A stretch of DNA of 64,000 bases from a virus (lineage: Duplodnaviria > Caudoviricetes). This document shows positions 5,276 through 32,780 of the stretch, one piece after another. The stretch covers positions 32,001-96,000 of the IMG/VR virus record IMGVR_UViG_2695421015_000001; one strand, written 5' to 3'. Both the position numbers and the translations under genes were made by a program. Every line of letters begins with the position of its first letter. The stretch's first letter is position 1. The notes beneath the pieces are model-generated. The model was not told the DNA's origin, did no database searches, and worked only from the letters and a program-made list of their open reading frames with translations.

Positions 5276-5604
5276 CCGAGGCGCTGTCGCGCCGCGAGCG
5301 CTATTTCCTGTCGCTCCTCGCCCCCGACGGGGCGACGATTAGTGTCGGCCTTTCGGTCGGAGAGTCGTTGTACCTCAAGGGGCTTGTGACGCTGGCGAAG
5401 TGGAAAAGATACGGCATAACGGAAGCGGGGCGAGCGGCCCTAGCTGGCGTTGCCTATGCGGCAAACGGTGCGGGGCGGCCCAATGCCCCGCCCCGGAAAA
5501 CGCCCATGGGAACCCGCCCCAAGGGCAGGGGAACCGGGGGCGGAACCGGGCAGGGGAACCGGGGGCTAACCGGGCAGGGGCAGGGGCAATTGACCCTGAT
5601 TTGA
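5272..5604 (+). CDS. hypothetical protein whose C-terminus runs into a low-complexity island
   Basis: Coupled start; Gly-rich tail encoded by GGGGCAGG repeats. Confidence 0.45.
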   Translation: MTEALSRRERYFLSLLAPDGATISVGLSVGESLYLKGLVTLAKWKRYGITEAGRAALAGVAYAANGAGRPNAPPRKTPMGTRPKGRGTGGGTGQGNRGLTGQGQGQLTLI

Positions 5605-5806
5605 GGGCCATACGGCGGGGCAGAAACGGCCCTAGGAGCGGCGTTTAGGGGTAGGCGCCTAAGCCTATACCGAAAGGCCTAACCCTAGGCCTTTTGGCGG
5701 CCCTTTGGGCCTGATAGGGCCGAAACGGCCCTATTTGCCGGAGGTGCCTAAATACCGTTACCCGAGCAAAGGAAAAGCCCCCGGCAAGGGCCGAAACTGG
5801 ACCTTG
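5377..5806. repeat. G-run-rich, TC-free island 1
   Basis: GGGGCAGG/GAACCGGG repeats; no TC dinucleotide seen on the + strand; hairpin ATAGGGCCG-AAA-CGGCCCTAT at 5714-5734. Confidence 0.8.
5673..5695. terminator. probable bidirectional intrinsic terminator between the convergent blocks
   Basis: AAAGGCCTA-ACCC-TAGGCCTTTT. Confidence 0.55.
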
Positions 5807-5823
5807 TCGGGGGCGGGTTGTTG

Positions 5824-6219
5824 CTATCGGAACAGAAGCGAAGCCGCTCGTTCCCATGGGTGACGATCGCGGACGATCTTGGCTTCCGTTTGCGCGCGGC
5901 CGTTGCCGCGCATTTGCATATCTCGGATCGTGACCCGGATCAGCGGCGGGCTTTCGCCGGCCGCTTCGTTGAGCCAAACGATCATGTGGCCATTGTTGAG
6001 TCGCTGGTAGACGGCTCTCGCATCAACATCCCAGCTGCTGCGCCCGTAGAAGCCAGGTCCATCGTACCCGCTCAGCCACCGATCCCAGTGATCTCTGTGG
6101 GTGTTGTAACCGCCTTTGGTGAGGCGATCCGACTCCGGCATCGTGGCCGGCAGGCGCCGCACGGCGAGCAGCATCTCGTGGATCGAATAAGAGCGTATCG
6201 CCATCATCGCACCACGCAT
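5824..6219 (-). CDS. hypothetical protein (last gene of the minus-strand array)
   Basis: 131 aa ORF with phage-like codon usage. Confidence 0.65.
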   Translation of the reverse strand: MRGAMMAIRSYSIHEMLLAVRRLPATMPESDRLTKGGYNTHRDHWDRWLSGYDGPGFYGRSSWDVDARAVYQRLNNGHMIVWLNEAAGESPPLIRVTIRDMQMRGNGRAQTEAKIVRDRHPWERAASLLFR

Positions 6220-6470
6220 TCTTCAATGACGTGCCACTCCTCGCCGCGCTCGCTCATCTTCTCCCAATAGCGGGAGACAAGCTCGTCGTCGGCGGGGCGG
6301 GTCTCGGCTCCGAACTCATGATCCCACCATTCGTCGCAGTGGTCATGGACCGCGCCGTCCGCGGCCGCCCGCGACGGGTGCGCGGTGACGGTGGTTCCAT
6401 GCTTGTGGTCGATCACCAGCACCCAAACTCTGGTGTTAGTTTTTTGCACCAATTCGGTGTCAGTAGTCAT
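6204..6470 (-). CDS. hypothetical protein
   Basis: ATG after ACGGAGACCAAATCT; MTTDTELVQK... Confidence 0.7.
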   Translation of the reverse strand: MTTDTELVQKTNTRVWVLVIDHKHGTTVTAHPSRAAADGAVHDHCDEWWDHEFGAETRPADDELVSRYWEKMSERGEEWHVIEECVVR

Positions 6471-6592
6471 AGATTTGGTCTCCGTGTTTGTGATAATGAG
6501 TCGCTGCTCCGATTGATGGACGCTGGGATGGTCTCCTTGCAGCCAACCTCTCGGGCACGAGGCGGGAGCTGCGAACTCCCGCCTCACCTTTT

Positions 6593-6787
6593 TTAGCGCC
6601 GCAGTCTCTCCGTGATAGAGAGTATGGCGTTGTAGTCGTCGGCGTCCGGCGGCTTCGAATCGTTGTAGCGCGGAGGCGTGCCTCCGAGCGCCCGATCGTA
6701 GGCGTCGATCTCTGCGGTCACCTCGCCGGCGATCTGCTCGATCTGTAACAGATGCCGGATACGGAAAAAGGCAAGCAACAGTTTCAT
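6593..6787 (-). CDS. hypothetical protein
   Basis: 64 aa, coupled to the upstream gene, GGAGAC RBS. Confidence 0.55.
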   Translation of the reverse strand: MKLLLAFFRIRHLLQIEQIAGEVTAEIDAYDRALGGTPPRYNDSKPPDADDYNAILSITERLRR

Positions 6788-7194
6788 CGCGCTGTCTCCT
6801 CCGTCAGCATGGCGGACAGTGTGCGGAAGCGATCAGCGGCTTTGTTCTGATCCTCGACGAAGGCCAGGAGCGCCGTTGACAGATGGTAGCGCAGGGTCTT
6901 GGTTGACGCTTCGCTGCGGTCCATCAACAGGTCACCGGGCTTGCCGTCCTCCGAGGTGACGGCCATCTGGAGGAAGTCCGCCAACACCGTTAGCCGATAG
7001 AAATTCAACGCGGCGTTTAGGATGTCTGCCTTCTGGCCGTCCGCCAGATCGGGTCTCTTGCACAGGCCTGATACTGCGATATTGACGGCGAGGGTTGCGC
7101 GCGTGGCGGCCGACATCTTCGGTACCCTCTCCTTCAAGAGGTTGATGAAGGCGTCGGCGTCGAGCTTGGAGAAGTCTGCAGTTGCGTGTTCCAT
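6784..7194 (-). CDS. hypothetical protein
   Basis: ATG follows the conserved leader. Confidence 0.75.
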   Translation of the reverse strand: MEHATADFSKLDADAFINLLKERVPKMSAATRATLAVNIAVSGLCKRPDLADGQKADILNAALNFYRLTVLADFLQMAVTSEDGKPGDLLMDRSEASTKTLRYHLSTALLAFVEDQNKAADRFRTLSAMLTEETAR

Positions 7195-7249
7195 AGTCGT
7201 GGTCTCCTTGTGAATGCCGGCTGCGAACCGGCGGTCGAGGTGGGTGGAT

Positions 7250-7483
7250 TTATCGGTCGTCGCGATGCACGATGACGACCTTCTCCGATTTGGGCGCCGT
7301 GCAGGCCCAGATCAGGGCGGCGATCCAGCCGAGGATCGTCCATCCCAAGAGCAGGTTGGTCATGAAGATCGCGAGCGTCTGACGATGCCGGCGGATCAGG
7401 CTGATGGATGTCGGTATGAAGTAGAGCGACAGGATGACGAGGAGCCCGATCAGAGCGGCTCCGTTATCAGAGGTATTGTTCAT
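7250..7483 (-). CDS. imm: superinfection immunity protein (T4 Imm-like)
   Basis: LYFIPT...RRH...IF..NLLLGWTILGWIAALIWA is the Imm family signature. Confidence 0.85.
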   Translation of the reverse strand: MNNTSDNGAALIGLLVILSLYFIPTSISLIRRHRQTLAIFMTNLLLGWTILGWIAALIWACTAPKSEKVVIVHRDDR

Positions 7484-7535
7484 TGGTGGTCTCCTTGTGA
7501 ATGCCGGCTGCGAACCGGCGGGTGGGTGGCTTGGT

Positions 7536-7775
7536 TTAGATGAAAAGTCGGCGCCGCACTGGCGGCAGCGATATCGCGATCGCCTTTTCGATGGCGCCCA
7601 AGGCTTCGTCGCCCGGGGAGCCGTTCGGGTGCAGTAGCCGGGCGCAACGGATCAGGTACGCCGCGGCATGTTCCTCGCAACAAAAGCGAGGGATCTCAGA
7701 CCTGCGAATGGTGACCGAGATGACGGTATCGGTGCTTTCGCAATTGCCCCAATGGCACATGAACTCACGGGGCAT
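7536..7775 (-). CDS. small Cys/His protein
   Basis: CHWGNC...FCCEEH. Confidence 0.55.
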   Translation of the reverse strand: MPREFMCHWGNCESTDTVISVTIRRSEIPRFCCEEHAAAYLIRCARLLHPNGSPGDEALGAIEKAIAISLPPVRRRLFI

Positions 7776-7941
7776 ACGGTACCTCCTCGACCTTCACGAC
7801 CTTCATCGCGACGACCTCGGCCTTGTCCATTAGGCAGTCGCCGCAACTGACGGCAGGGTCGGGGACGCGATCCTCGCGGACGACGTCCGATAACTTGTTG
7901 CAGGATGGGCAGACGACGTGGAAGAGATATCGCCGCTTCAT
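7765..7941 (-). CDS. small zinc-ribbon protein
   Basis: Start after the leader; CPSC...CGDC. Confidence 0.65.
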   Translation of the reverse strand: MKRRYLFHVVCPSCNKLSDVVREDRVPDPAVSCGDCLMDKAEVVAMKVVKVEEVPYAP

Positions 7942-8123
7942 TGTTCGGTCTCCTTGGATTGGCGCCGCTGCGAACGGCGGTTGAGTTGTTCTTCGGCCCA
8001 CGCGAGCGCTCCTTCGTAGAACTCGCGGGGGAGGTCGCCGTCACTGTCGCCGACAGCGCCGGCGAGTTTGGCGTGCAGGGCCTCGATGATGGCTTCGAGG
8101 CGGCGGGTGCTGAGTGAAGCCAT
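7938..8123 (-). CDS. hypothetical protein; its 3' end runs through the leader
   Basis: 61 aa ORF coupled to neighbours. Confidence 0.5.
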   Translation of the reverse strand: MASLSTRRLEAIIEALHAKLAGAVGDSDGDLPREFYEGALAWAEEQLNRRSQRRQSKETEQ

Positions 8124-8296
8124 CAGACGATCACCTTCCTCACGCGGAAGGTTGCCTTTGGCGAGCGCTTGCGCATGAGCGCAGCGCCAGCCTCCGCCTC
8201 GTCCTCATCGCGATAGGCCTGCATGACGTACCATCTATCGAGGTCGGGCGGCTGTATCTCAACCGCCCATGGCCTCCGCTTGCTGAGGTTTGCCAT
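8123..8296 (-). CDS. hypothetical protein (MANLSK...)
   Basis: Coupled start with GGAGG RBS. Confidence 0.55.
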   Translation of the reverse strand: MANLSKRRPWAVEIQPPDLDRWYVMQAYRDEDEAEAGAALMRKRSPKATFRVRKVIV

Positions 8297-8541
8297 CACT
8301 TCGCCTCCCATTGCATGGCGGCGAAGGCGAGGTCCTCGACCAGATCGCGATACGCGGCCGGGTCGGTGCCGGTGCAGTCGAGACGGTTGATCTCGGCGAG
8401 TATCTCGGCTCGCACCAGCGCCTCCTGTAGCGTCTGGCCGAGCCGGGGCCAGCCATGTCCCCATTGCCTCTCGACGTATCTGGCAGCCTCCTTGATCCGT
8501 CGCTGGACGTCGCGCTTCATCGGCTTACTGAGGTTTGCCAT
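8296..8541 (-). CDS. hypothetical protein (MANLSK...)
   Basis: Coupled ORF. Confidence 0.55.
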   Translation of the reverse strand: MANLSKPMKRDVQRRIKEAARYVERQWGHGWPRLGQTLQEALVRAEILAEINRLDCTGTDPAAYRDLVEDLAFAAMQWEAK

Positions 8542-8545
8542 CAGA

Positions 8546-8839
8546 TCACGACGCACAGATCGCGCCGATCATCCAGTGGGTTTTGTCGCCGCGCTTGAAC
8601 CGCACGGCGCGTGCCTCCTCCCACTTGCGGCAGTTCGCGTCGAGATAGTCGTTGGCCGATTTCGCGTCGGCGAACTCGTCGCCGGCGACGAACATCAGGC
8701 CGGAGGCCATGCCGAAGCCGCCGGAGTAGGAGTGCCCGTTCTCGTAACGGTCTTGGTCCTGGGCCTCCGCGAACTTTTGCTTGACCGCCTCGCGGTCCAG
8801 TTTGCCGTCAAGCGTCATCGTCTCAAAATTTGCACCCAT
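8546..8839 (-). CDS. hypothetical protein
   Basis: ATG after the leader; MGANFETMTLDG... Confidence 0.75.
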   Translation of the reverse strand: MGANFETMTLDGKLDREAVKQKFAEAQDQDRYENGHSYSGGFGMASGLMFVAGDEFADAKSANDYLDANCRKWEEARAVRFKRGDKTHWMIGAICAS

Positions 8840-9047
8840 GGTGCTGGTCTCCTTGATTGGGGTTGATGCCCTCTGCGAAAGGGCGGTTAGCGATCCGGGT
8901 TCTCTAGCTCGTTGGTGAGGCTTCCGAGCCAAACAGGAGTTGCTGCAGCAACGACGACCGCATCCACGATGCGGGCATCGAAGTGTAGGCAGATTTTTGC
9001 GGCGGCCACGCCGATTAGAAAGCGGGCCACCGGCAATACCATCGCTA

Positions 9048-9395
9048 TCAGTGTCCGTGGTGCCATGTCCTGCCACCATCATGCGAGTGATGCCCGCCAG
9101 CCAGCGCCTTGGCGTCGACACGGCGACCTGCGAGCTGTTCGGCGCGGGCGAGTTGCTGTTTCGCCATCGCCGATCCGGTGGACATGATGCGCCGGTAGAC
9201 GCAAGCGTCGGTGACGCCCCTGCGATTGACAGCGGCATCGAGGCCCTCGAACGCGATCGCGCCAGTCGGACCGACCTTCGGCTTGACGCGGCCGTTGACG
9301 ATCGCCTGCGCGACGAGGTCGATGACCTTCTTGATCTCCTCCTTTCGTTCGGTGAGGGTTTGGGTGGGGGTACTTTTCCAAGTGTCGCACGCCAT
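9048..9395 (-). CDS. hypothetical protein, probable partner of the AAA ATPase
   Basis: Leader variant with a C(UUCG)G tetraloop hairpin at 9426-9449. Confidence 0.75.
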   Translation of the reverse strand: MACDTWKSTPTQTLTERKEEIKKVIDLVAQAIVNGRVKPKVGPTGAIAFEGLDAAVNRRGVTDACVYRRIMSTGSAMAKQQLARAEQLAGRRVDAKALAGGHHSHDGGRTWHHGH

Positions 9396-9460
9396 GTTGG
9401 TCTCTCCTTGATGAATGGGAAATGGGATCGGCGGCCGAAGCCGCCGATCTGTTACGTGGA

Positions 9461-10342
9461 TCAGTCCATCTCGAACTGTGGCACCTGCACGGCCGGAGCC
9501 GCCGGCGCGAGTGACTCTCCGAGGTCGATCTCCGGAGCGTCGGTTACCGGAACCCCATCCGAGTCCCGGATTATGTCGTTCTCATACGCGGGCACCTCCT
9601 CCATCTCGATCGGAGCCAGGTCAAGCATGCGACCCTCGTGGATGGGGGCAGCGACCTCCGTCGCCTCGTCGAGGTCAAGGAAGCTGGTCCGGGCGGCTGT
9701 GATCTTCTGGATCGACAACAGGTCGATCTCGGCCGCGCTTTGCTCGCCGGCCTTTTTGATCGTGGTAGCCGCGGAGCGAGCAACCTTGATCGCATCCTTG
9801 ACGCGCTCGGCCATTTCAGGGGAGAGCATGGAGCCAAGCTCGCGCGCCCGGTCGGCCGCGTCCCGGATCGCCTTGGGGTCGAACTTGCTGATGCCAGCTT
9901 CCATCGCGGCGAGCAGCTCGCGGACCTCGGCGTTGATGGCTCGCACCGCCTTGACGTCGTCGCTTTCGATCTTGCCGGCAACAACCTCGAAGCTGAGGCG
10001 AGTGGTCGCGGCTCGACGATTGAACTCGTCGGCGAGCGCGCGAGCCTCGTCCACCGATTGGTTCAATGCCGCATAGTTGTCTTCCGGGCAGAGCAGACCG
10101 AACGAGATCGGCGCGCAGGTTTTGGTGACGGTGGCGCGCATCTTGCTCCTCAGTTGCGTCGCCTCCTTCAACTCTGCGGCGTTAGCGATCACACGCTCGG
10201 TCTCCCATCTGCCTTTCAGGCTGCCGTCAGCGTCTTCGGTGTCGGCCTCGAGGATCGTCTTGGAATACTTGACGTTGCCGGTGATACCGGTGCGCATAAT
10301 CACAACGTAACCCGGGCGGATGGTGGTGGTTCGGATCGTCAT
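9461..10342 (-). CDS. hypothetical helical protein, probable partner of the AAA ATPase
   Basis: 293 aa ORF after the leader. Confidence 0.8.
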   Translation of the reverse strand: MTIRTTTIRPGYVVIMRTGITGNVKYSKTILEADTEDADGSLKGRWETERVIANAAELKEATQLRSKMRATVTKTCAPISFGLLCPEDNYAALNQSVDEARALADEFNRRAATTRLSFEVVAGKIESDDVKAVRAINAEVRELLAAMEAGISKFDPKAIRDAADRARELGSMLSPEMAERVKDAIKVARSAATTIKKAGEQSAAEIDLLSIQKITAARTSFLDLDEATEVAAPIHEGRMLDLAPIEMEEVPAYENDIIRDSDGVPVTDAPEIDLGESLAPAAPAVQVPQFEMD

Positions 10343-10429
10343 AGTGGTGGTCTCCTTGGTGAATGCGGCCTGCGAAGCCGCGTTGGGGTGGTGGTCGGTA
10401 TTGCCGCGGCGGTTATCCGCCGCGGGTAG

Positions 10430-10603
10430 TCATTGCCAGACTTGCAGGCGGCGGCGCCGCCAGCGCGCGACAGACAGAGCAAGCTTTTCTGTCGCGCATG
10501 AGATCGGAATGAACCGGGCGTCCTTGGCGATGCGCCAGTAGCCATTCCGATCGCGATACTCGGCGGTCCAGCCGCCGAGCGAGTTCTGATACGCCCGGAT
10601 CAT
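10430..10603 (-). CDS. 57 aa hypothetical protein
   Basis: Open frame MIRAYQNSLGGWTAEYRD... directly after the AAA gene. Confidence 0.45.
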   Translation of the reverse strand: MIRAYQNSLGGWTAEYRDRNGYWRIAKDARFIPISCATEKLALSVARWRRRRLQVWQ

Positions 10604-10609
10604 GGGCGG

Positions 10610-12634: not shown

Positions 12635-12682
12635 TGATGGTCTCCTTGTAGAGGGCGCTGCGAACGCCCGGTTGGGATTGTA

Positions 12683-13656: not shown

Positions 13657-13659
13657 GGT

Positions 13660-16612: not shown

Positions 16613-16692
16613 TGAGTTGGTCTCCTTGTGTGTGAACGTGGTGTGGGCGGCGCCTGCGAAGCGCCGCCTTGCTGGCTGGCCTGCGTGGGGAG

Positions 16693-17088: not shown

Positions 17089-17148
17089 GGGTGTGGTCTC
17101 CTTGATGATGGGGAAGGGGGCGCCGCCTGCGAAGCGGCGCCCGGATTG

Positions 17149-18539: not shown

Positions 18540-18566
18540 GGATGGTCTCCTTGATGATTGGGTGTT

Positions 18567-23874: not shown

Positions 23875-23879
23875 GGCGT

Positions 23880-25317: not shown

Positions 25318-25368
25318 GATGCGGAAGTGCATCGTGGAGCGCCGCGTGCGGCGCTCGTCGATGAACTC
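25318..25368 (-). repeat. class-2 structured leader element, copy A
   Basis: GAGTTCATCGAC-[8 bp hairpin]-CACGATGCACTTCCGCATC. Confidence 0.8.
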
Positions 25369-25588: not shown

Positions 25589-25821
25589 TGGCCCCTCCCT
25601 TCGCGATTGAGGCGGGCGACCTCGCGGCGGTAAACGGAGATGCCGGACTCGGGCATCGACAGCTTCGCGCCGCTCGGCGTCGGCAGGTATCCGACATAGC
25701 CGCGCATGTTGAACCAAAGCTGGTCCACGATCTTGCCGTTGAGGATCACGTCGTAGCGCTTCGTGGTCTCCAGCATCTGGCAACCGCGGCGCGTCTCTTT
25801 CAGTTCAAGCTTGAATGGCAT
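25585..25821 (-). CDS. hypothetical protein
   Basis: After the leader. Confidence 0.7.
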   Translation of the reverse strand: MPFKLELKETRRGCQMLETTKRYDVILNGKIVDQLWFNMRGYVGYLPTPSGAKLSMPESGISVYRREVARLNREGRGQ

Positions 25822-25895
25822 GGTTGGTCTCCTTGGTTTGAAAACGAAAGAGCGCGCTCGCTGCGAACGGCGCGCCCGTCGGGGATGGGTTGGTT

Positions 25896-26198
25896 TCAGC
25901 TATGGGTGTAGCCGTCGGGCTCGATGCCGAGCCACATGCCCCATCGGTGGATCATGATGCAGCCGTAGCCGCCGTGCACGGTCTTGCGGAAATTCCGGTA
26001 CTGGATCGACGGCACCTTGACGACGCGATGGGGATTGCGGACCGCGAAGTCAGCGAACTTTTCGGCGTCGTAAGGGTGGCCCTCGAAGTGGCGACGATCT
26101 TGCTCCTGCAGCCGGATCGTCGGTGTCAGCCAGCTTGGGAAGTCGCGGAGGAAGATTCGGAACAGCGCCTCGCGCTGCGCTCGGGTGGTGACGATCAT
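25896..26198 (-). CDS. hypothetical protein
   Basis: After the leader; C-terminal GMWLGIEPDGYTHS. Confidence 0.75.
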   Translation of the reverse strand: MIVTTRAQREALFRIFLRDFPSWLTPTIRLQEQDRRHFEGHPYDAEKFADFAVRNPHRVVKVPSIQYRNFRKTVHGGYGCIMIHRWGMWLGIEPDGYTHS

Positions 26199-26240
26199 GG
26201 TGGTGGTCTCCTTGAATGCCGTCTGCGAAACGGCGGTGGG

Positions 26241-26591
26241 TTAGTGGTTGATGGTCTCGGAAGCGTCCAGCACTTCCAGCACCTTGGCGGCGCCGATCTG
26301 GTCGATCTTGGTGGCGACGAGCATCTCGGCCGCCTCGCGGTCGGTCAGCTTGGCGTGATGGCCTTTCGCCACCATGTAGCGGACCTTCACGTCATTGAGC
26401 CGGCCGAACACCATGCCGGAGGCATAGTGCGTGAGGGTGTCGGCCTCCTTGCCGAGACGGCTTTGCTGCAACACGAACTTGACCTTGCGGTCGCCGATCG
26501 TGAGCCATGCGACGCGCCCGGTGCGTTCGGACAGCGTGATCTTATGGCCCCGGGGGCGTTTCCCCGGCACCTTGAAGGTGATGGTTGGCAT
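26241..26591 (-). CDS. hypothetical protein
   Basis: MPTITFKV... Confidence 0.65.
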   Translation of the reverse strand: MPTITFKVPGKRPRGHKITLSERTGRVAWLTIGDRKVKFVLQQSRLGKEADTLTHYASGMVFGRLNDVKVRYMVAKGHHAKLTDREAAEMLVATKIDQIGAAKVLEVLDASETINH

Positions 26592-26602
26592 GGTGCATTC
26601 CC

Positions 26603-27085
26603 TCAAAAGCCGCTGGCGAGTTGATGGGCTTCGGCGTCGGTCTTGCCGTCAAGTTTGTGCTTGGCGTAGGAGCGTTGCCATTTGACCCAGCTGCGGAGTT
26701 CGGCCGCCTCCGCCTCCTTGCAAGCAGACGCGAACACGAACAGCTCGTCGTCACGGCGCGGCTCCCACGCGCTTTGCGCGGCGAACATGCGGACCTTGGA
26801 GATCGCATCGCTCATGGTCATTGGCCTGGAGCCGAGCCCGTTCATCCACAGCGTCTTGCCGTGATGCTCGGTCGCCTTGCCGGGCTCGATGATCTGGTAG
26901 CACCACTCGCCGACCGGGCTCGCGGCCACGATCAGGGTGAGGCCCCATCGGAACTCGATGTGCGGCGCCTGCGCATTGCACAGGAAGTCGATCTTGTTCG
27001 AGAGGTCGAGTTTGGCCTCGTTCTTGTTCGGGCCTTCGCCGACGACGCAGCCGCGGCTTGTTGTGACGGTCTTGGGTTTACGCAT
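26603..27085 (-). CDS. hypothetical protein
   Basis: After the leader. Confidence 0.75.
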   Translation of the reverse strand: MRKPKTVTTSRGCVVGEGPNKNEAKLDLSNKIDFLCNAQAPHIEFRWGLTLIVAASPVGEWCYQIIEPGKATEHHGKTLWMNGLGSRPMTMSDAISKVRMFAAQSAWEPRRDDELFVFASACKEAEAAELRSWVKWQRSYAKHKLDGKTDAEAHQLASGF

Positions 27086-27128
27086 GGTGGTCTCCTTGTG
27101 ATGCGCTCGCTGCGAACGAGCGCGGGTT

Positions 27129-27668
27129 TCAGATGATCGAGCCGTAGCCTTTGCAGTCCGGACACTTGTCCCAGACCGGCGTGATGCCGTCGTCGCCTTT
27201 GCAGGTCTCGATGCCGTTGGATGCGACGTTGCCGAAATGCGTGGCGCAGGTCGGGCAGCCGTGGGTGTCGTTCCAGATCGTGGTCGCCTCGTCCTCGACG
27301 GCGATCAGCGCCGCGCCGTAAGCTTCGGCAGCCTGCTTGGGCGTCTCGAACTTTTCGTCGAGCAGGTCGATGACGTGGGTGGTAGTGGTCTGATCGACGC
27401 CTTCGACGATCGACGTCACTGACAGGGCGGTGAAGAAAGATCCTTCGACGGACAAATCCTCGCCCCACACCCAGCTGCCGGGGTTATCCTCACCGGCATA
27501 GAGCAGCGCGCCGACCGACGCGCCGCAGTCGGTGTACTTGTAGGCTTTGCGGGCGAGCTGCCCGACGTTGTCGGCGTCGTTCGCCTCAAGGATGGCGCGA
27601 AGGTTCTCTTGCGCGGCTTGCCCCATGGCTTTGAGCTCTTCGCCGCGTTCGTATTCGATTTCGTTCAT
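27129..27668 (-). CDS. acidic hypothetical protein with a C-terminal zinc ribbon
   Basis: AAGGAGTCCACC RBS; CPTC...CPDCKG. Confidence 0.75.
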   Translation of the reverse strand: MNEIEYERGEELKAMGQAAQENLRAILEANDADNVGQLARKAYKYTDCGASVGALLYAGEDNPGSWVWGEDLSVEGSFFTALSVTSIVEGVDQTTTTHVIDLLDEKFETPKQAAEAYGAALIAVEDEATTIWNDTHGCPTCATHFGNVASNGIETCKGDDGITPVWDKCPDCKGYGSII

Positions 27669-27677
27669 GGTGGACTC

Positions 27678-28012
27678 CTTGGTTTGCCGATTGACGGCGG
27701 GCATGGGTGAATGAACCCGGGGCAGGCCCCCGGGGGCGGGGCAATAGAACCGGGGCAGGCCCGGGGGCAGGCCTAGAACCCGGGCAGGGAATAGAGGCCC
27801 GGGGGCAGGCCCGGGCAGGGGCAGGGAATAGAGGCCCGGGCAGGGGCAGGGGCCTAGGAACCGGGGCAGGGGCAGGCCCCTAGGCCCGGGCAGGCCCCTA
27901 GGCCATAGGCCCGGGCAGGCCCGGGGGGCAGGAATAGGGCCGAAACGGCCCTATTAGAACCCAAGCCCGAAACCAAACGAGGAGCGCCGCATAGCCCCTT
28001 GCGCGCGGCGAC
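27678..28012. repeat. G-run-rich, TC-free island 2
   Basis: Tandem degenerate CCCGGG(G)CAGG and AATAGAGG units; hairpin AATAGGGCCG-AAA-CGGCCCTATT at 27933-27955. Confidence 0.85.
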
Positions 28013-28412
28013 TCGAGATGCGGTCGCGGATCGATCCGGCGTCGGCGAGGCCGCGCTCATGCAAATCGGTCAGCGTCTTGAGCGCGTCGGCGCGCGCCCG
28101 GGTGACGTAGACGGTCAGGGTCCGCTTGACGTGCGGCCCGAGTCCGACGGTCACGACCTGGCCCTCGGCGTTCACGCCATAGGTCCGCGCCTGCGCTCCC
28201 GTCCGGTGGCGGCTGCCGGGGTTGCGAATGTGCAGCGTGGTGACGACCCATCCGAAGCGCTCGGTCTCGTACAGGGTCAGGGTGTGCAGCACGTCGAACG
28301 GCTGCGGCTTGCGCCAGTCGTATTTCTTGGGGTGCTTCGGATATGCGGTGTCGGTCTCCTTGAGGCCGAAGGGCAGGGCGGGCTTGGTCGGCTTGCCGGT
28401 GGGGAACTTCAT
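27954..28412 (-). CDS. hypothetical protein
   Basis: After the leader. Confidence 0.75.
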   Translation of the reverse strand: MKFPTGKPTKPALPFGLKETDTAYPKHPKKYDWRKPQPFDVLHTLTLYETERFGWVVTTLHIRNPGSRHRTGAQARTYGVNAEGQVVTVGLGPHVKRTLTVYVTRARADALKTLTDLHERGLADAGSIRDRISSRRAQGAMRRSSFGFGLGF

Positions 28413-28567
28413 GGGTGGTCTCCTTGCGATGAATGTTGAAATGGAAGGCGCGCCCCGCTGCGAACGGGGCGCGCGCTGTCAGTCTCTCCGTGTGCCCAAC
28501 GTCACCATTGGGCATTCGCTCAGCGTAGTTCTGAGGCGCGGTCTCCTGTAGAGAGGCTGAAAGGTTG

Positions 28568-28816
28568 TCAGCGCGGATCGTAGAGCGGCTTGCTGTTGGG
28601 CTTCCACTCGGCGCCCGGCCAGACGCGGCCGTTGTAACTGACGTGGGCAATGATCTTGCCGGCGTCGTCGATGATCGTGCCGCCGGTGAACGGCGCGAGA
28701 CTCGAGCCGCAACCGGCGCCGAGGTCTCCGGTGTCGATGAAGCGACGCACCCTCTCGGATGCGTCGGCGTAGCTGGCGACCTTGACGGCGCGACTGCGGG
28801 TGAGATGAACTCGCAT
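28568..28816 (-). CDS. hypothetical protein
   Basis: C-terminal IAHVSYNGRVW motif seen in small phage proteins. Confidence 0.65.
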   Translation of the reverse strand: MRVHLTRSRAVKVASYADASERVRRFIDTGDLGAGCGSSLAPFTGGTIIDDAGKIIAHVSYNGRVWPGAEWKPNSKPLYDPR

Positions 28817-28819
28817 CGG

Positions 28820-29008
28820 TCAGCCCTCCATCCCGCAAGCGCGGTAGAAGAGGCTGGGCTTGAATTTGCCATTTGCGACGGCGCATTCGATTGCGAAGCG
28901 GCGCACGGTGTCGCGCCACTGGTCGAGTTGCTTCCGATCTTGCGTGTTGGGCTTGCCCTGCTTCAGCACGGCGGCGATGAACTGGAAGTGAGATTGGCTG
29001 ATGGACAT
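28820..29008 (-). CDS. hypothetical protein
   Basis: SHFQFIA...N.KF....F..AC pattern. Confidence 0.6.
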   Translation of the reverse strand: MSISQSHFQFIAAVLKQGKPNTQDRKQLDQWRDTVRRFAIECAVANGKFKPSLFYRACGMEG

Positions 29009-29019
29009 GCTCGCCTCCC

Positions 29020-29181
29020 TCACTGCACGTTGACGCGAGGATGATCGGCGAGGCCGCGCCGCGTCAGGAACTCCTGATCGACAACGTAGCGGGTGTAGGG
29101 CTGCGGGCGATCTTCGACGTATTCGCGGAAGCGGCGGAGTTCATCTTGGCGGATCAGCTTGAGGATTTGCTTGCGTGACAT
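29020..29181 (-). CDS. 53 aa protein (MSRKQILKLIR...)
   Basis: After the leader; N-terminus shared with 30575-30643. Confidence 0.65.
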   Translation of the reverse strand: MSRKQILKLIRQDELRRFREYVEDRPQPYTRYVVDQEFLTRRGLADHPRVNVQ

Positions 29182-29248
29182 GGTGGTCTCCTTTGGTTGG
29201 GGCCGCTGCGAACGGCCGGTGAAAAACAGGTGATGGGTTTGGTCGGGA

Positions 29249-29545
29249 TCAGGCGGAGAACACGACGGTTTCGCCGTCGATGGTGTGTGGCACCTTGCGG
29301 GTGACGAGTGCGGTGGCTGCGTCCAGCGGGAGCTTCCACGTCGCTGCGACGACGTTGGCGAGGTTCTTGCGATCCTTCGGGAAGCTGGCGCCGTTGATCG
29401 CCCAAGCGATCAGGCCGGGAGCGTAGACGAACGGCGACGATTGGAGGCGATAGGTCTTGGTGGCGGGGTAGCTCTGGATGAAGGTCTTGGCGGCGCGCTT
29501 GCTGCGGGTGTCGGCGAGGACAGCGGAAATTGCAGTCTTGGACAT
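29249..29545 (-). CDS. hypothetical protein
   Basis: After RBS and class-2 element. Confidence 0.7.
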   Translation of the reverse strand: MSKTAISAVLADTRSKRAAKTFIQSYPATKTYRLQSSPFVYAPGLIAWAINGASFPKDRKNLANVVAATWKLPLDAATALVTRKVPHTIDGETVVFSA

Positions 29546-29562
29546 GGTGGTCTCCTTGGACT

Positions 29563-29614
29563 GATGCGGAAGTGCATCGTGACGCGGCGACATGCGCCGC
29601 GCTGCGATGGGCTC
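29563..29614 (-). repeat. class-2 structured leader element, copy B
   Basis: GAGCCCATCGCAG-[7 bp hairpin]-TCACGATGCACTTCCGCATC. Confidence 0.8.
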
Positions 29615-29617
29615 CGA

Positions 29618-29920
29618 TCAGTCGCGTACCGGCCAGCCGCGCTCGGCGGCGAGCTTCTTGGCTTGGTCGATGACATCCATCGAGGGCAGGCGTCCTTCGA
29701 GGCATACGCAGAGCGCGACGCCGGCAGCCGGCGTATGCAGGTGGCCGCGCTCTTTCGTGACGGCGACGGGCCGTGTGTCGGCGATGCCGACAACCTTCTC
29801 CTTCTCGATCACGAGAATGTCCCCGGTCTCGACCGGGTACTCGCCGTCGAAGGCGAAGTGAATGCCGGTCTGACAGGCATCGTAGGCGTCGCCGCTGGTG
29901 GGGAATGTGTGGGTGCTCAT
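29618..29920 (-). CDS. hypothetical protein
   Basis: MSTHTFPTSGDAYDACQ... after the leader. Confidence 0.7.
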   Translation of the reverse strand: MSTHTFPTSGDAYDACQTGIHFAFDGEYPVETGDILVIEKEKVVGIADTRPVAVTKERGHLHTPAAGVALCVCLEGRLPSMDVIDQAKKLAAERGWPVRD

Positions 29921-29970
29921 GGTGACGGTCTCCTTGGGTTGACGTTCTGCGAAAACGATGGGTGAGGGGA

Positions 29971-30276
29971 TCAGACGTATTCGATGGCGACGACGACGCC
30001 GGTGGTCATGAAGATTTCGGCGGCGTGGGCGCAGGCGATCTCCATGTCGGGGACGACCTCGCCGGCGACGACCAGCTTGATCGCCTTGCGCTCGGCCATG
30101 TCGATGCCGGTGCCGATCGCGTCGAGCAGGTTGGTCGCGTAGTAGGCGCTGGTCTCGGTCTTGGCGCCCTTGAAGTTGACGATGTACTCGCCGTCGACCG
30201 ACTTGATGGTCATGCCGTGCTTGGCCAGGATCGCGCGGGCTTGGTGGATCGTGTAGTTGGTTCTGGTTCCAGCCAT
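29971..30276 (-). CDS. hypothetical protein
   Basis: After RBS and class-2 element. Confidence 0.75.
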   Translation of the reverse strand: MAGTRTNYTIHQARAILAKHGMTIKSVDGEYIVNFKGAKTETSAYYATNLLDAIGTGIDMAERKAIKLVVAGEVVPDMEIACAHAAEIFMTTGVVVAIEYV

Positions 30277-30292
30277 GGTGGTCTCCTTGGGT

Positions 30293-30344
30293 GATGCGGA
30301 AGTGCATCGTGGGACGGCGACATGCGCCGTCCGTCGATGAACTC
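30293..30344 (-). repeat. class-2 structured leader element, copy C
   Basis: GAGTTCATCGAC-[8 bp hairpin]-CACGATGCACTTCCGCATC. Confidence 0.8.
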
Positions 30345-30347
30345 GGA

Positions 30348-30563
30348 TCAGTCGATGGTCTTGAAGCCGTGGCGGGCGGCCGCCGTCACGTCGCCGGTCT
30401 TGGCCATGCCGGACAGGTGCAGGCCGAACACCGCAGTGAAGCGGCCGTCGCGATTGCAGACGACCAGCGGCATCATCTGGTCGAGGCCCGTGGTCGCGAG
30501 TGCCTTCATCAGGTTCGCTTCGGTGGCGTAGCTCTTGGCGTTGTCGATATCGAGTATGCTCAT
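30348..30563 (-). CDS. hypothetical protein
   Basis: MSILDIDNAKSYATE... Confidence 0.65.
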   Translation of the reverse strand: MSILDIDNAKSYATEANLMKALATTGLDQMMPLVVCNRDGRFTAVFGLHLSGMAKTGDVTAAARHGFKTID

Positions 30564-30574
30564 GGCGGTCACTC

Positions 30575-30643
30575 TCACTTGCCGTTGCGGTAGCGCTGGA
30601 GTTCGAGCTTGCGGATCAGGGCGATGATTTGCTTGCGTGACAT
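30575..30643 (-). CDS. 22 aa basic peptide (MSRKQIIALIRKLELQRYRNGK)
   Basis: Starts directly after a full leader. Confidence 0.5.
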   Translation of the reverse strand: MSRKQIIALIRKLELQRYRNGK

Positions 30644-30726
30644 GGTGTGGTCTCCTTGATGGTTGGTGGTGGAATGAAAAGGCCCCGCTGCGAACGGGGC
30701 CTGTCGGGGATGGGATGGGGATTGGA

Positions 30727-31092
30727 TCAGCCGCGGCCGCGACCGCACTTCATCTTGCGCTTGCCGCCCTTGGCCTTGCCCTTTGTCGAGCGATAGCCCT
30801 TGCCGCTGTCCATCTCGCTCGCCCAGATCGCGTCATCGACCCGCACATGCTGCCTTTCGATGGCGTCAAACACGCGATAGCAGGCGTCAGAGAACTCGAG
30901 GTCCAGGTCGCGCAGCCTATCGAGTGCGGCGTCCCGGGCGTCGATATCCTTGTAAGTCTCGCAGGGCATCGCCTTGATGGCGCGGGCGGCGGCGAGGGAA
31001 GCGACCTCGCCGGCCTTCGTGGCTGCGCGGAAGGCGGCGTTCATCTTGGTTTCGGCTTTCTTGGCGGTGGCAATGATGGTCTGGACGTTCAT
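30727..31092 (-). CDS. hypothetical protein with a basic tail
   Basis: After the leader. Confidence 0.75.
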   Translation of the reverse strand: MNVQTIIATAKKAETKMNAAFRAATKAGEVASLAAARAIKAMPCETYKDIDARDAALDRLRDLDLEFSDACYRVFDAIERQHVRVDDAIWASEMDSGKGYRSTKGKAKGGKRKMKCGRGRG

Positions 31093-31167
31093 GGGTGGTC
31101 TCCTTGAGTTGCAGGCATGAAAAAGGCCCGCTGCGAATGGGGCCGGTGATGGTCGGTGGTGGTGGGG

Positions 31168-31452
31168 TCAGCGGCGCAGGCTGGCGGGTCCGCCTTTGCC
31201 CTTGGGCGCCTCGCGCCAAACGTCGGGGTACTTGGCCATGATCGCTTTCTTGTTCTGGTAGAAGCCCTCGCAGGCGACGCGAAAGAACTCGACGCCGTCG
31301 CGGCAGAAGATCACGAAGGCGGTGTCGGGGATGGACCGGAACGATCCGGCGGTGCGGTAGCAGGCGTCCTCGCCAGCCATCGGGATGCTGTCCTTCGAGG
31401 TGACGAGTCTGCCGCGGTTCCAGATTTGGCAGATGGCAGTGAACTTGCTCAT
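31168..31452 (-). CDS. hypothetical protein
   Basis: CAAGGAGACCACC-ATG. Confidence 0.7.
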   Translation of the reverse strand: MSKFTAICQIWNRGRLVTSKDSIPMAGEDACYRTAGSFRSIPDTAFVIFCRDGVEFFRVACEGFYQNKKAIMAKYPDVWREAPKGKGGPASLRR

Positions 31453-31500
31453 GGTGGTCTCCTTGTGTGAGGTAGGGTGGAAGATCAGGGTGATGGTGGA

Positions 31501-31704
31501 TCAGCAGAGCGCGGAAGCAACGCAGTGCGCGTTTTCCCAGACGTTGCGGCAATCGGCGAGGCGGAGTTGATCCGCGATCACCTTGCGGATGTGCGTCTTG
31601 CTGTGCGTCTTGGGGCAGCACTTTTTGTAGAAGTTGTTTTTGAGCAGCGCCTGTTCGACGTTATCGATGCGGCGCTTGCTGATGGCGGTGGTCTTGGTAG
31701 CCAT
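31501..31704 (-). CDS. hypothetical basic protein, first gene of the array
   Basis: CAAGGAGACCACC-ATG. Confidence 0.7.
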   Translation of the reverse strand: MATKTTAISKRRIDNVEQALLKNNFYKKCCPKTHSKTHIRKVIADQLRLADCRNVWENAHCVASALC

Positions 31705-32298
31705 GGTGGTCTCCTTGGTTTGGGTTGCTTAGATCGGAGCGTCGCTATGCGGCGCTCCGAGCTAAGCCCGCGCCCATGCTGCGACATGGGCGGGGTTAGC
31801 TGGCCGCGCGGCTTAATGGAGCCGCGCGATCTCAGTGCATCTCTCTTCCTGTTCGGTACTGCGGCCCGGTATTCGGCAATCCTGCGCGGCTACTACGGTC
31901 ACGATGGACATTCGCCGGCGGCGTCTATGGCGCGCTCTTGGATGTTAGCCTATTGGCGCGGCCCGCCTTGCTAGAGCGGCGCGTCAAAACCTTATCGGCA
32001 TTCGCGAGGGGAAAAGAGGCAAACAACATAGCCCTTGAACCATTTGCTTTGACGCCGCGCGATTGCGCGGGGCGGAAGAGTTGGCGGGATATGCCTTGGG
32101 TTATGAGAGGATAGGAGCGCGGGAGATACTGGAGTCGCATTGTTGACTAAGCGATGAGTCGCTATGCAGCTAATGGGACCGTCGGCAGGGTTCCTTACCG
32201 GGCTTTCGCTTAGCCCCTCCGACAACAAAATTGGACAGCGCGCGCAATGCGCTGTTGCGACCACTTTTCGGCCGCGTCCTTTATCCTTTCTACTTGTC

Positions 32299-32780
32299 AA
32301 ACAGCCCGCCCCTGCAAGCGGCCCCCGCTACTACGGCCCAATGGGCATTGGCGGGAACCTTGGGGCTTTGGGGCCGGAGGCTTGCGCGCCCCCGGTCCCG
32401 GCCCCCGGGGAGGCGGGTAAACCCGCCCCCGACGGGGAGACATATATATGCACCTAACCGGTGCAAAGGAAAAGCGCTATTTTTGCCCCGCTAACCCGTT
32501 GAAATATAACGATTTTTGCCCCGGAAAAAGGGGCCGAAACGGCCCAAACGGCCCAAATGCCCCCGAATCTGCCCTGCCGGGGGCGGGTTAGAAGCCCCTA
32601 GGGGGCGAGTTGACCGGGGCAGGGGGAAAGGCCCGCCCAAAGGCCTAGCCCGCGCGGGGAGCGGCCCTAGCCCGCCCCATGGGGCAAGCGAATGCGGGGG
32701 CAGGGGAAAGAGCAGGGGCAGGGAACGGCGCAAAGCCGGAACCATGCCCGGGATAGAACCGGGCATAACCGGGCAGGATG
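32299..32780. repeat. G-run-rich, TC-depleted island 3 in the divergent intergenic region
   Basis: Only 2 TC seen on the + strand in about 480 nt; GGGCCGAAACGGCCC at 32531-32545; GGGGCAGGG repeats. Confidence 0.75.
32436..32468 (-). promoter_or_regulatory. candidate sigma70-type promoter for the minus-strand array, overlapped by an inverted repeat
   Basis: Minus strand reads TTGCAC-CGGTTAGGTGCA-TATATATGTCT; inverted repeat TGCACC-N5-GGTGCA at 32449-32465; spacing not canonical. Confidence 0.4.

What the first reader, a model, noticed from the sequence alone, without database searches (positions are those of the whole stretch)
5377..32780. Three strand-specific TC-free, G-run-rich islands bracket the array and share one hairpin
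Seen: by manual reading there is no TC dinucleotide on the + strand in 5377-5806 (about 430 nt) or 27678-28012 (about 335 nt), and only two in 32299-32780. TC is very common elsewhere (TCG, GATC), and GA is still present in the islands, so the depletion is strand-specific. All three carry GGGGCAGG-type repeats, CTAG (rare elsewhere) and GGGCCG-AAA-CGGCCC (5714, 27933, 32531). They sit at the end, inside and start of the early array, and the depletion extends into adjacent coding sequence. Inference: these tracts may be single-stranded or structured at some stage (G-quadruplex, R-loop, staged DNA-injection stops as with the T5 iss, or origins). They may be purged of a TC-containing target, such as that of DarT-type ssDNA ADP-ribosyltransferases (TNTC/TCTC) or of a base modification.
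Basis: partly seen in the sequence, partly recalled or inferred. Interest (0 to 1): 0.78.

Follow-up and report, generated by a model that had tools for sequence, protein, structure and literature searches.

The report
Strand-polar TC-free prophage spacer islands
Three short non-coding islands in a large prophage almost completely lack the dinucleotide TC on one DNA strand and carry dense one-way arrays of the host's chromosome-segregation word GGGCAGGG; related prophages keep the TC gap although the island sequences have changed, so selection probably maintains it, but what reads that strand is not known.

Summary
TC counts are 0, 0 and 2 in the three islands. These islands give the 1st, 3rd, 4th and 12th longest TC-free runs in the 9.09-Mb genome. 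The shared 15-nt hairpin occurs only there.

Two syntenic prophages of the same genus (G557, G584) have TC-poor islands at the I1 and I3 positions, although the islands do not align. Pooled over 7 islands (3,570 nt), TC is 9 against 121.5 expected, while GA is 200 against 290. Six of the 9 remaining TCs lie in GANTC sites. Repeat expansion, G-skew and a genome-wide mutation bias do not explain this.

The repeated word is C(C/G)GGGCAGG. Its core, GGGCAGGG, is the host's most strand-skewed octamer, 366:36, which is KOPS-like. The window has 16 copies on the + strand and none on the - strand, with 13 of them in the islands. These are the three densest clusters in the genome, all in the permissive orientation.

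My best reading is one-way cis elements at operon borders that include FtsK-loading arrays (confidence about 0.33). G584's islands have no KOPS, so TC avoidance is a separate constraint whose agent I could not identify. DarT-type TNTC avoidance and T5-like injection stops are not supported.

The parts
5377..5806 (+). Island I1. A TC-free run at the convergent junction between the rightward early/replication operon and the end of the leftward 26-kb block.
   Evidence: TC 0 against 15.3 expected. Longest TC-free run of the genome. Homologous TC-free islands of 317 nt in G557 and 392 nt in G584.
5272..5604 (+). Small ORF. It has a conserved winged-helix-like domain of about 57 aa and an unconserved Gly/Arg-rich tail that is simply read out of the island repeats.
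   Evidence: Three homologues share 51% identity, only in the N-terminal part. The model has mean pLDDT 61 and weak MarR/DtxR-like fold matches, best E = 0.085. No Pfam, PHROG or NCBIfam hit.
5523..5586 (+). Array of 4 GGGCAGGG (KOPS) words in I1.
   Evidence: Copies start at 5523, 5548, 5572 and 5578. Dinucleotide shuffles reached 4 copies in 0 of 1000 trials.
5713..5735 (+). Shared hairpin ATAGGGCCG-AAA-CGGCCCTAT(T).
   Evidence: 15-mer at 5717. A 22-mer is identical to I2. GAAACGGCCCTATT also occurs in G584's I3.
5747..5756 (+). CCTAAATACC, a block kept in the I1 homologues of all three lineages.
   Evidence: Read by eye. Not tested statistically.
5776..5817 (-). Terminator-like hairpin with a T-run, ending the leftward block.
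27678..28012 (+). Island I2. A TC-free spacer between two genes of the leftward block, found in this genome only.
   Evidence: TC 0 against 7.5 expected. The run is bounded on both sides by GACTC sites at 27673 and 28010. Absent upstream of the homologous gene in L079-L081. No counterpart in G557 or G584.
27720..27932 (+). Array of 14 GGGCAGG words, 6 of them full GGGCAGGG. This is the densest cluster in the 9.09-Mb genome.
27933..27955 (+). Shared hairpin. It overlaps the stop codon of ORF 27954-28412.
32299..32780 (+). Island I3. The divergent region between the leftward block and the rightward late genes. It has 2 TCs, one of them in GAATC at 32565.
   Evidence: Homologues: 661 nt with 4 TC in G557 and 953 nt with 3 TC in G584.
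32440..32530 (.). AT-rich core (GC 0.42-0.50). It holds the palindrome TGCACC-N5-GGTGCA (32449-32465) and TAACCCGTTGAAA (32492-32504). Both are recognisable in G557, and in G584 in a degenerate form.
   Evidence: No sigma-70 consensus match.
32531..32545 (+). Third copy of the hairpin. On the - strand it is followed by CTTTTTCC, which is terminator-like.
32617..32777 (+). 3 GGGCAGGG words (32617, 32698, 32716) plus 1 GGGCAGG (32771).

Best explanation
What is shown. The islands are fast-evolving non-coding spacers of a temperate prophage of about 110 kb. They lie at the two borders of its 26-kb leftward gene block, and in this genome also once inside it. They are built from GC-palindromic words (GGGCCC, GGCC, CTAG hairpins) joined by purine-rich linkers. 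I1 carries operon-end hairpins. I3 carries an AT-rich promoter/operator-like core. In this genome and in G557 the islands also carry one-way arrays of the word C(C/G)GGGCAGG. Its core is the host chromosome's KOPS octamer, always on the strand that is permissive for FtsK movement towards the terminus.

What I infer (about 1 in 3). The arrays act as strong loading and orienting sites for the host FtsK translocase. This would give a large prophage correctly oriented segregation signals placed in DNA that codes for nothing.

A second, separate constraint. The near-absence of TC on the same strand is older than the KOPS arrays and independent of them, and selection probably maintains it. It tolerates TC mainly inside GANTC (CcrM-type) sites. 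The duplex step GA/TC is itself present, so the constraint must be read on one strand, either as single-stranded DNA or as a transcript. I could not identify what reads it.
For: - GGGCAGGG is the most skewed octamer of the host with the prophage masked: 366 leading against 36 lagging, among words with at least 150 copies.
- Its density rises towards the skew-defined terminus at about 4.26 Mb.
- The host has one FtsK with a gamma domain.
- The window has 16 copies on + and 0 on -, 13 of them in the islands. The islands are the three densest clusters in the genome (6, 4 and 3 per 400 nt; no more than 2 elsewhere).
- Dinucleotide shuffles reached the observed count in 0 of 1000 trials for G000 I1-I3 and G557 I3, and in 6 of 1000 for G557 I1. 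The reversed word and three other G-rich controls are not enriched in 33 of 35 word-by-island tests; GGGCCGGG in G557 I1 (3 copies, 7 of 1000) and the reversed 7-mer in G557 I3 (1 copy, 187 of 1000) are the exceptions.
- Local polarity agrees with the islands. GGGNAGGG is 21:2 and 23:3 in the 200-kb flanks and 24:2 in the prophage. In G557 it is 2:34 around an inverted copy of the prophage, whose islands lie on the - strand.
- Bobay et al. 2013 (PMC3603311, passages read) report that lambdoid prophages match host KOPS density and polarity.
- TC constraint: pooled TC is 9 against 121.5 expected, while GA is 200 against 290.
- It is conserved at I1 and I3 in three lineages whose genes are 66-83% identical but whose islands gave no blastn match at E 1e-10.
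- 6 of 9 remaining TCs lie in GANTC.
- TC-free coding stretches use rare T- or A-ending codons (read).
- The genome-wide leading-strand TC/GA ratio is 0.999.
Against: - G584's two islands are TC-poor but have 0 GGGCAGGG and only 1 GGGCAGG. KOPS arrays are therefore not what defines the islands.
- Only 13 of the 22 words in G000 have the eighth G that KOPS needs (C in 7, A in 2). The conserved unit looks like a 9-10-mer that contains 7/8 of KOPS.
- Outside the islands the prophage already has host-like KOPS density and polarity, 11:2 in about 105 kb, so extra signals are not obviously needed.
- Islands within one genome share more 11-mers with each other (15-30) than with their positional homologues (0-7). 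That is what co-evolving protein-binding repeats or gene conversion would also give.
- All three lineages seem to sit at the same chromosomal place and orientation (3.3-3.5 Mb from the skew origin). Co-orientation is therefore one observation, not three.
- No FtsK binding, expression or single-strand data exist. No RNA run was available.
- Nothing in the FtsK reading explains the TC gap.
Confidence: 0.33

Rival explanations
1. The arrays are iterons. They would be oriented binding sites of a phage DNA-binding protein (the primase-helicase, the small winged-helix protein next to I1, or another). The islands would then be a replication origin plus enhancer-like second sites, as in SPP1 oriL/oriR or P4 ori/crr. 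The match to KOPS would be coincidence or secondary.
For: - A primase/helicase gene lies 2.6 kb upstream of I1.
- I3 has an AT-rich core flanked by GC-rich direct repeats.
- The repeat word differs between lineages: C(C/G)GGGCAGG in G000 and G557, GGGGCCCG-type in G584.
- Islands within a genome are homogenised, as expected for sites co-evolving with their binding protein.
- The eighth KOPS base is not fixed.
Against: - No initiator with a known iteron-binding domain was found. Pfam found no family at E up to 0.01 in 18 of the 20 window ORFs scanned in those two calls; the primase/helicase, the AAA ATPase and the methyltransferase did hit.
- The primase-helicase is about 74% identical in DNA across all three lineages while the repeat words differ.
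- The winged-helix gene occurs without any island in G418.
- Site arrays do not explain why about 400 T residues, including those in G584 sequence that shares few words with the other islands and did not look repetitive to me by eye (not measured), are almost never followed by C.
- SPP1 and P4 are recalled from memory, not checked here.
Confidence: 0.2
2. The constraint acts on RNA. The islands would be untranslated parts of the long leftward transcript (5' leader, internal spacer, 3' trailer) that must contain no GA. This would avoid Shine-Dalgarno-like GGAG/GAGA words, or a GA-directed RNA-binding or RNA-cutting factor tied to the block's uniform CAAGGAGACC ribosome site.
For: - In I2 and in G584's I3 the GA-free run on the minus sense ends at, or within about ten bases of, the ribosome-binding site of the next leftward gene.
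- In at least nine of the short spacers of the block that I read, GA occurs only in the ribosome-binding site or once more (for example 12635-12682, 16613-16692, 17089-17148, 18540-18566).
- 18 of 43 called genes have AAGGAGAC within 22 nt of the start.
Against: - Most of I1 lies beyond a good terminator of the leftward block.
- In G000 and G557 the stretch between the first leftward gene and I3 does contain TC.
- All GA-containing trinucleotides are lost, not only Shine-Dalgarno-like ones.
- GGGGG, which can also pair with the anti-SD, is not avoided.
- Coding parts of the block show no loss of GA or GGAG (82 and 6.1 per kb, against 72 and 3.2 in the late genes).
- No RNA data were available.
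Confidence: 0.12
3. The TC gap is a mutational footprint, or an evasion, of a TC-specific enzyme acting on single-stranded DNA (cytosine deaminase, ADP-ribosyltransferase, T7-type primase site GTC). It would act where the G-rich strand is displaced, in an R-loop or G-quadruplex on the non-template strand of rightward transcription, or at an origin.
For: - TT is 2.3-fold over expectation, and TTG/TTT/TTA (51/37/21) are in roughly the proportions that TCN to TTN conversion would give.
- G-run clusters lie on the non-template strand downstream of rightward transcription in I1 and I3.
- GT, the other half of GTC, is the second most depleted dinucleotide at 0.45.
- TC depletion as an APOBEC footprint is known in animal DNA viruses (recalled, not checked).
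Against: - There is no genome-wide TC/GA skew on the leading strand (0.999).
- TA is also enriched (1.46), which conversion does not explain.
- No rightward transcription is evident through I2.
- No DarT, DddA-like or YwqJ-type gene was found in the host, but the first two searches were uninformative because the controls also stayed silent.
- The TNTC-specific form does not fit the equal loss of all four NTC trinucleotides.
Confidence: 0.15
4. The gap is a by-product of vocabulary. The islands would be continually rebuilt by slippage and gene conversion from a few TC-free words, with no selection on TC itself.
For: - I2 is highly repetitive.
- Islands within a genome share words and a 22-nt identical hairpin.
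Against: - G584's I3 (953 nt, 133 T) shares few 11-mers with the other islands and did not look repetitive to me by eye (not measured), yet it has 3 TC against 37.5 expected.
- The run extends into a conserved protein domain, where rare codons are used.
- The leftover TCs are concentrated in GANTC.
Confidence: 0.1

Closest known systems
KOPS / FtsK recognition sequence (GGGNAGGG in E. coli, GGGCAGGG in P. aeruginosa). Motifs as quoted in PMC8190038 and PMC3603311, passages read.
   Same: Identical octamer. In this host it is the most skewed word, with the polarity switch and the density gradient towards the terminus. The islands carry it only in the permissive orientation.
   Different: Known KOPS are scattered, about one per 10 kb, mostly inside genes. 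Here 13 copies lie in 1.25 kb of non-coding DNA. One related lineage has none. The eighth base is variable.
Adaptation of temperate prophages to host KOPS density and polarity (Bobay, Rocha, Touchon 2013, PMC3603311; passages read).
   Same: The prophage outside the islands has host-like density and polarity, 11:2 in about 105 kb.
   Different: The passages I read mention no clustering of KOPS into dedicated non-coding islands.
Arrays of 8-bp direct repeats (clt/TRS) that load the FtsK-like pump TraB of Streptomyces plasmids. Recalled from memory, not checked.
   Same: A dense one-way array of an octamer that would serve as a loading site for an FtsK-family motor.
   Different: No phage-encoded FtsK-like protein or gamma domain was found. 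The only gamma domain in the genome is the host's.
Phage origins with dispersed iteron clusters (SPP1 oriL/oriR, P4 ori/crr). Recalled, not checked.
   Same: Two or three separated clusters of the same oriented repeat, one beside an AT-rich stretch, near a primase-helicase gene.
   Different: No identified initiator. The repeats are absent in one lineage. A strand-specific dinucleotide gap is not a known feature of such origins.
Strand-biased TC depletion in animal DNA viruses, attributed to APOBEC3. Recalled, not checked.
   Same: The same dinucleotide, and the same strand-specific character.
   Different: Here it is confined to a few hundred bases of non-coding phage DNA in a bacterium. No matching enzyme is known or was found.

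Membership tests
KOPS (FtsK-orienting polar sequences) | Octamer GGGNAGGG | tested here: met
   13 exact GGGCAGGG in the three islands. 9 further words are 7/8 matches.
KOPS (FtsK-orienting polar sequences) | Strong strand skew in the host chromosome that switches at origin and terminus, with density rising towards the terminus | tested here: met
   366:36, the top octamer. The bin counts switch at about 4.26 and 8.67 Mb.
KOPS (FtsK-orienting polar sequences) | Co-orientation with replication at the locus | tested here: met
   16:0 in the window. Flanks are 21:2 and 23:3.
KOPS (FtsK-orienting polar sequences) | Host FtsK with a gamma domain that binds the word | tested here: inconclusive
   One FtsK_gamma match at E 8e-26. 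Binding cannot be tested here.
KOPS (FtsK-orienting polar sequences) | Kept in relatives if it is the function of the islands | tested here: not met
   G557 has 7 copies. G584 has 0 in both islands.
Iteron-type phage origin | Direct repeats in one orientation next to an AT-rich unwinding stretch | tested here: inconclusive
   True for I3. I1 and I2 have repeats but no comparable AT-rich stretch.
Iteron-type phage origin | Cognate initiator protein that binds the repeats | not testable with these tools
   Candidates only: the primase-helicase 404-2743 and the winged-helix ORF 5272-5604.
DarT target avoidance (TNTC / TCTC; motifs recalled) | Loss confined to TC preceded by T at position -2 | tested here: not met
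   All four NTC trinucleotides are lost about equally. The DarT family search in the host was uninformative because the controls were silent.
T5-type injection stop signal | Virulent phage with stepwise DNA entry, terminal repeats and nicks | tested here: not met
   This is an integrated prophage with a cI-like repressor, a recombination module and a terminase. Nicks cannot be tested from sequence.
G-quadruplex-forming tract | Four G-runs of at least 3 with loops of 1-7 | tested here: met
   4 of the window's 7 + strand motifs are in the islands. However, C-runs are equally dense and hairpins compete with quadruplexes. Folding was not tested physically.
Intrinsic terminator | GC hairpin followed by a T-run | tested here: inconclusive
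   Terminator-like sites at 5776-5817 and, for the shared hairpin, only in I3 on the - strand.

The most novel reading that the evidence does not exclude
Selection purges one dinucleotide (TC) from one strand of phage non-coding DNA and tolerates it only inside CcrM-type GANTC sites. The reason would be that this G-rich strand is exposed as a single strand (R-loop, quadruplex or origin) to a TC-directed enzyme that has not yet been described in this setting. Candidates are a bacterial counterpart of APOBEC-type editing, an ADP-ribosyltransferase, or the phage's own primase. The same islands double as phage-borne loading arrays for the host FtsK pump.
Probability: 0.18. Interest if true: 0.85.

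Novelty: new variant of a known kind. Interest (0 to 1): 0.62.

Why it matters
If the arrays load FtsK, this would be the first case I know of where a prophage packs the host's segregation signal into dedicated non-coding cassettes. Until now prophages were only known to match the host's scattered pattern. It would give a simple handle (delete or invert the islands) to test how large insertions stay compatible with chromosome polarity.

The TC gap is the stranger part. It is a near-total, one-strand loss of a dinucleotide, kept across three diverged prophage lineages, with its exceptions sitting in methylation sites. That implies some process reads these few hundred bases strand by strand. Identifying it could reveal a new DNA-directed or RNA-directed activity in phage-host conflict or in phage replication.

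Tried and rejected
- **Close DNA relatives.** None in 'phages' by megablast or blastn. None among 60 relatives' genomes; the hits were only chance matches of 23-55 nt.
- **The hairpin elsewhere.** The 19-mer of the hairpin had 0 hits in viral contigs and 5 in genome contigs, all single copies in unrelated phyla. I read these as chance.
- **AAA ATPase of the block.** No true homologue in 400 family genomes, only generic AAA matches. Its best phage relatives are Cluster-O-type mycobacteriophages, which did not help.
- **Brevundimonas phage Polewnik** (capsid 65% identical): no GGGCAGG cluster, 5 forward and 1 reverse copies in 61.9 kb.
- **Distant viral contigs with the 191-aa gene.** Some have repeat islands with long TC-free or GA-free runs (L003, L006, L026). 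These are built of other words, and L003 has one island of each kind on the same strand with the same gene direction. I do not count them as the same phenomenon.
- **Rfam.** Only a tRNA in the window.
- **Sigma-70 consensus scan.** No promoter in any island.
- **Pattern scan of 300 genus genomes** for three close GGGCAGG words. 36 had a match. In the 30 loci kept (29 of them from other genomes), only G557 had a long TC-free or GA-free run. The rest, read by eye, were mostly tandem microsatellites.
- **The winged-helix gene.** It occurs without an island in G418, another genus. The neighbour gene's more distant homologues (G464, G813, G024, G579, G608, G498, G672) have no island within 1.5 kb.
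- **Toxin-family searches in the host genome.** DarT, DddA-like and YwqJ-deaminase families gave no match. For the first two the control genomes were silent too, so the result says nothing. MafB19-deam matched housekeeping-type deaminases in 12 of 14 controls and is uninformative.
- **Sequencing runs.** No RNA holder was listed. Run X1 (DNA contigs, at least 99% alike, low depth) may be the source sample. One contig covers 32323-32563 with a 1-nt gap, and other parts are uncovered. It adds nothing independent.
- **Literature.** Three full-text searches listed no paper on KOPS clusters in phages or on strand-specific TC-free phage tracts. I read only the listings and the KOPS passages of two papers. 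No supplements were opened.
- **Not tried.** Complex prediction, the protein atlas and the representative-protein search were not used.

Full report
**Setting.** The window is G000:C1:3046835-3110834, on a 9.09-Mb single-contig chromosome. It lies inside a temperate prophage.
- Just upstream are a cI-like HTH repressor, a GcrA-like protein, a YqaJ-type exonuclease and an SSB.
- In the window, a primase/helicase (404-2743) and small rightward genes run up to about 5600.
- A block of about 26 kb of leftward genes, mostly of unknown function, follows (5824 to about 31700). It includes an AAA ATPase, a DUF4942-methyltransferase and a peptidase-like protein.
- Rightward late genes (terminase, portal, capsid) start at about 32870.
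- A 24-nt direct repeat at 3,032,793 and 3,143,379 suggests attachment sites and a size of about 110 kb. This is an inference.
- The capsid protein is 64-65% identical to those of Brevundimonas phages Polewnik and Strzyga.

- TC counts are 0, 0 and 2 in the three islands, against 15.3, 7.5 and 17.0 expected from local base composition.
- Mononucleotide shuffles reached the observed count in 0, 2 and 0 of 20,000 trials.
- Genome-wide the islands give the 1st, 3rd, 4th and 12th longest TC-free runs. The 2nd is an unrelated repeat that looks coding. The longest GA-free run anywhere is 219 nt.
- GA is present in the islands (24, 18, 25), so the duplex step GA/TC is not avoided. The asymmetry belongs to one strand.
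- The 15-nt hairpin has 3 copies in the genome, all in the islands and all on +.
- CTAG is rare in the window (16 copies against 81.6 expected), and 10 of the 16 are in the islands.

**Identity of the repeated word.**
- With the prophage masked, GGGCAGGG is the most strand-skewed octamer of the host, 366 leading against 36 lagging.
- It has a polarity switch at the skew-defined origin (about 8.67 Mb) and terminus (about 4.26 Mb), and its density rises towards the terminus.
- The host has a single FtsK gamma domain.
- The window has 16 copies on + and none on -. Thirteen are in the islands (4, 6 and 3), which are the three densest clusters in the genome.
- Dinucleotide-preserving shuffles never reached these counts. 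The reversed word and other G-rich control words are not enriched in these islands.
- The flanking 200 kb on either side have GGGNAGGG at 21:2 and 23:3, so the islands point the permissive way.
- Aligned, the unit is C(C/G)GGGCAGG, with 22 copies. The eighth base is G in 13, C in 7 and A in 2.

**Relatives.**
- The 191-aa gene left of I2 has homologues in many viral and metagenomic contigs. The three closest that I could fetch (50-57% identical) have no island upstream of the gene.
- A pattern scan of 300 genus genomes and a protein search of 400 found two syntenic prophages, G557 and G584. Their genes are 66-83% identical in DNA to those of the window.
- Three IMG/VR records are copies or near-copies of these two types.
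- Both relatives have islands at the I1 and I3 positions, and neither has an I2.
- G557's I1 is 317 nt with 0 TC, and its I3 is 661 nt with 4 TC.
- G584's I1 is 392 nt with 0 TC, and its I3 is 953 nt with 3 TC.
- The islands gave no blastn match between genomes at E 1e-10. They align only over a short core of I3.
- Pooled over the 7 islands, observed/expected is 0.07 for TC. The next lowest is GT at 0.45. TT is 2.31 and GA is 0.69.
- All four NTC trinucleotides are lost about equally.

**Why I think selection acts.** The host shows no leading-strand TC/GA bias (0.999). G584's I3 shares few 11-mers with the other islands and did not look repetitive to me by eye, though I did not measure this. 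The run also enters a conserved protein domain, where rare codons are used. I therefore conclude that the gap is maintained locally, most likely by selection.

**Exceptions to the TC gap.** Six of the 9 remaining TCs lie in GANTC sites (GAATC four times, GACTC once, GATTC once). The I2 run is bounded on both sides by GACTC. In the window only 72 of 4,813 TCs lie in GANTC. The prophage encodes a GcrA-like protein, so these sites may be regulatory. That is an inference.

**KOPS and the TC gap are separable.** G557's islands have 2 and 5 GGGCAGGG. G584's have none and only one GGGCAGG, although G584's prophage region has 6:0 elsewhere. Islands within G000 share 15-20 eleven-mers with each other, and those within G557 share 30. 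Positional homologues in different genomes share 0-7. So the repeat words spread within a genome, either by concerted evolution or by co-evolution with a binding factor.

**Weighing the readings.**
- **FtsK loading (about 0.33).** It rests on the exact match to the host's top polar word, the orientation, and the independent enrichment in G557. It is weakened by G584, by the variable eighth base, and by the fact that the prophage outside the islands already has host-like KOPS (11:2).
- **Co-orientation is not replicated evidence.** G557's prophage sits about 3.3 Mb from its polarity switch, and G000's about 3.5 Mb. This is probably the same site in both.
- **Iteron/origin (0.2).** It fits the lineage-specific words and the AT-rich core of I3, but no binding protein was identified.
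- **RNA reading (0.12).** It fits I2 and the left half of G584's I3, where the GA-free run on the minus sense ends at, or within about ten bases of, the next ribosome-binding site. It also fits the short spacers of the block. It does not fit I1, which lies beyond a terminator, or the coding regions.
- **Single-strand exposure with a TC-directed enzyme (0.15).** It fits the excess of TT and the G-runs on the non-template strand. It lacks any identified enzyme.
- **DarT and T5.** The T5 analogy has no support.

**Structure.** I2 folds better than all 100 shuffles, both as + strand DNA (z = -4.9) and as - strand RNA (z = -3.4). The small ORF that runs into I1 is a winged-helix-like protein of about 57 aa, with weak MarR/DtxR-type fold matches and an unconserved tail read out of the repeats.

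**Limits.**
- Only three lineages are known, all in one genus and probably at one integration site.
- There are no expression, binding or modification data.
- Comparisons with SPP1, P4, TraB, DarT motifs and APOBEC footprints are from memory.

Noticed in passing
L041 (Brevundimonas phage Polewnik, ON529863.1) about 4023-6850: A stretch of about 2.8 kb of small early genes almost lacks AG, and also GG, on the coding strand, with runs of 608, 543, 371 and 310 nt. By eye, the few AGs are mostly in the AAAGGA ribosome sites behind repeated promoter-like leaders. This is another strand-specific dinucleotide gap in a related phage, here inside coding sequence.
   Followed up: partly
window 32895-32950, 32793-32809 and 33482-33530: Arrays of ATGTCCC(A) and the inverse GGGACAT flank the first rightward gene (32868-33626, 252 aa, no family hit). 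The same words occur at the same place in G557 and G584. This is probably the operator array of a regulator.
   Followed up: partly
window 7195-31500, spacers of the leftward block: Most spacers carry a GC hairpin with a UUCGCAG loop followed by the same ribosome site CAAGGAGACC. 18 of 43 called genes have AAGGAGAC within 22 nt of the start. Earlier notes e1-6205557 and e1-6227282 describe this.
   Followed up: partly
L174 (G557) about 1262-870 on the - strand: An extra ORF is inserted in G557's I1 homologue. By eye it looks like a GIY-YIG homing endonuclease (GVYLL...YIG). It was not checked against any family library.
   Followed up: no
G000:C1:3032793 and 3143379 (also 3147158, partial): A 24-nt direct repeat, GCTACCGTTACACCATTCCCCACC, brackets the prophage. 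These are likely attachment sites.
   Followed up: no
window 27957-28012 and 5460-5604: Two ORFs end in odd low-complexity tails (..SFGFGLGF and ..GRGTGGGTGQGNRGLTGQGQGQ) that are simply island sequence read in frame. This suggests the islands grew into, or were inserted at, the 3' ends of genes.
   Followed up: partly
L003 255-530 and 5307-5584; L006 1-140; L026 5501-5700: Distantly related viral contigs have their own intergenic islands of short repeated words (GGTGTATAG; GGCCCGTGTGCC; CTGGCAGCATGGCAGCACCTAG; GCCGCCGACCTGGTG).
   Followed up: partly
window 38767-38838: A tRNA gene lies among the rightward genes of the prophage.
   Followed up: no
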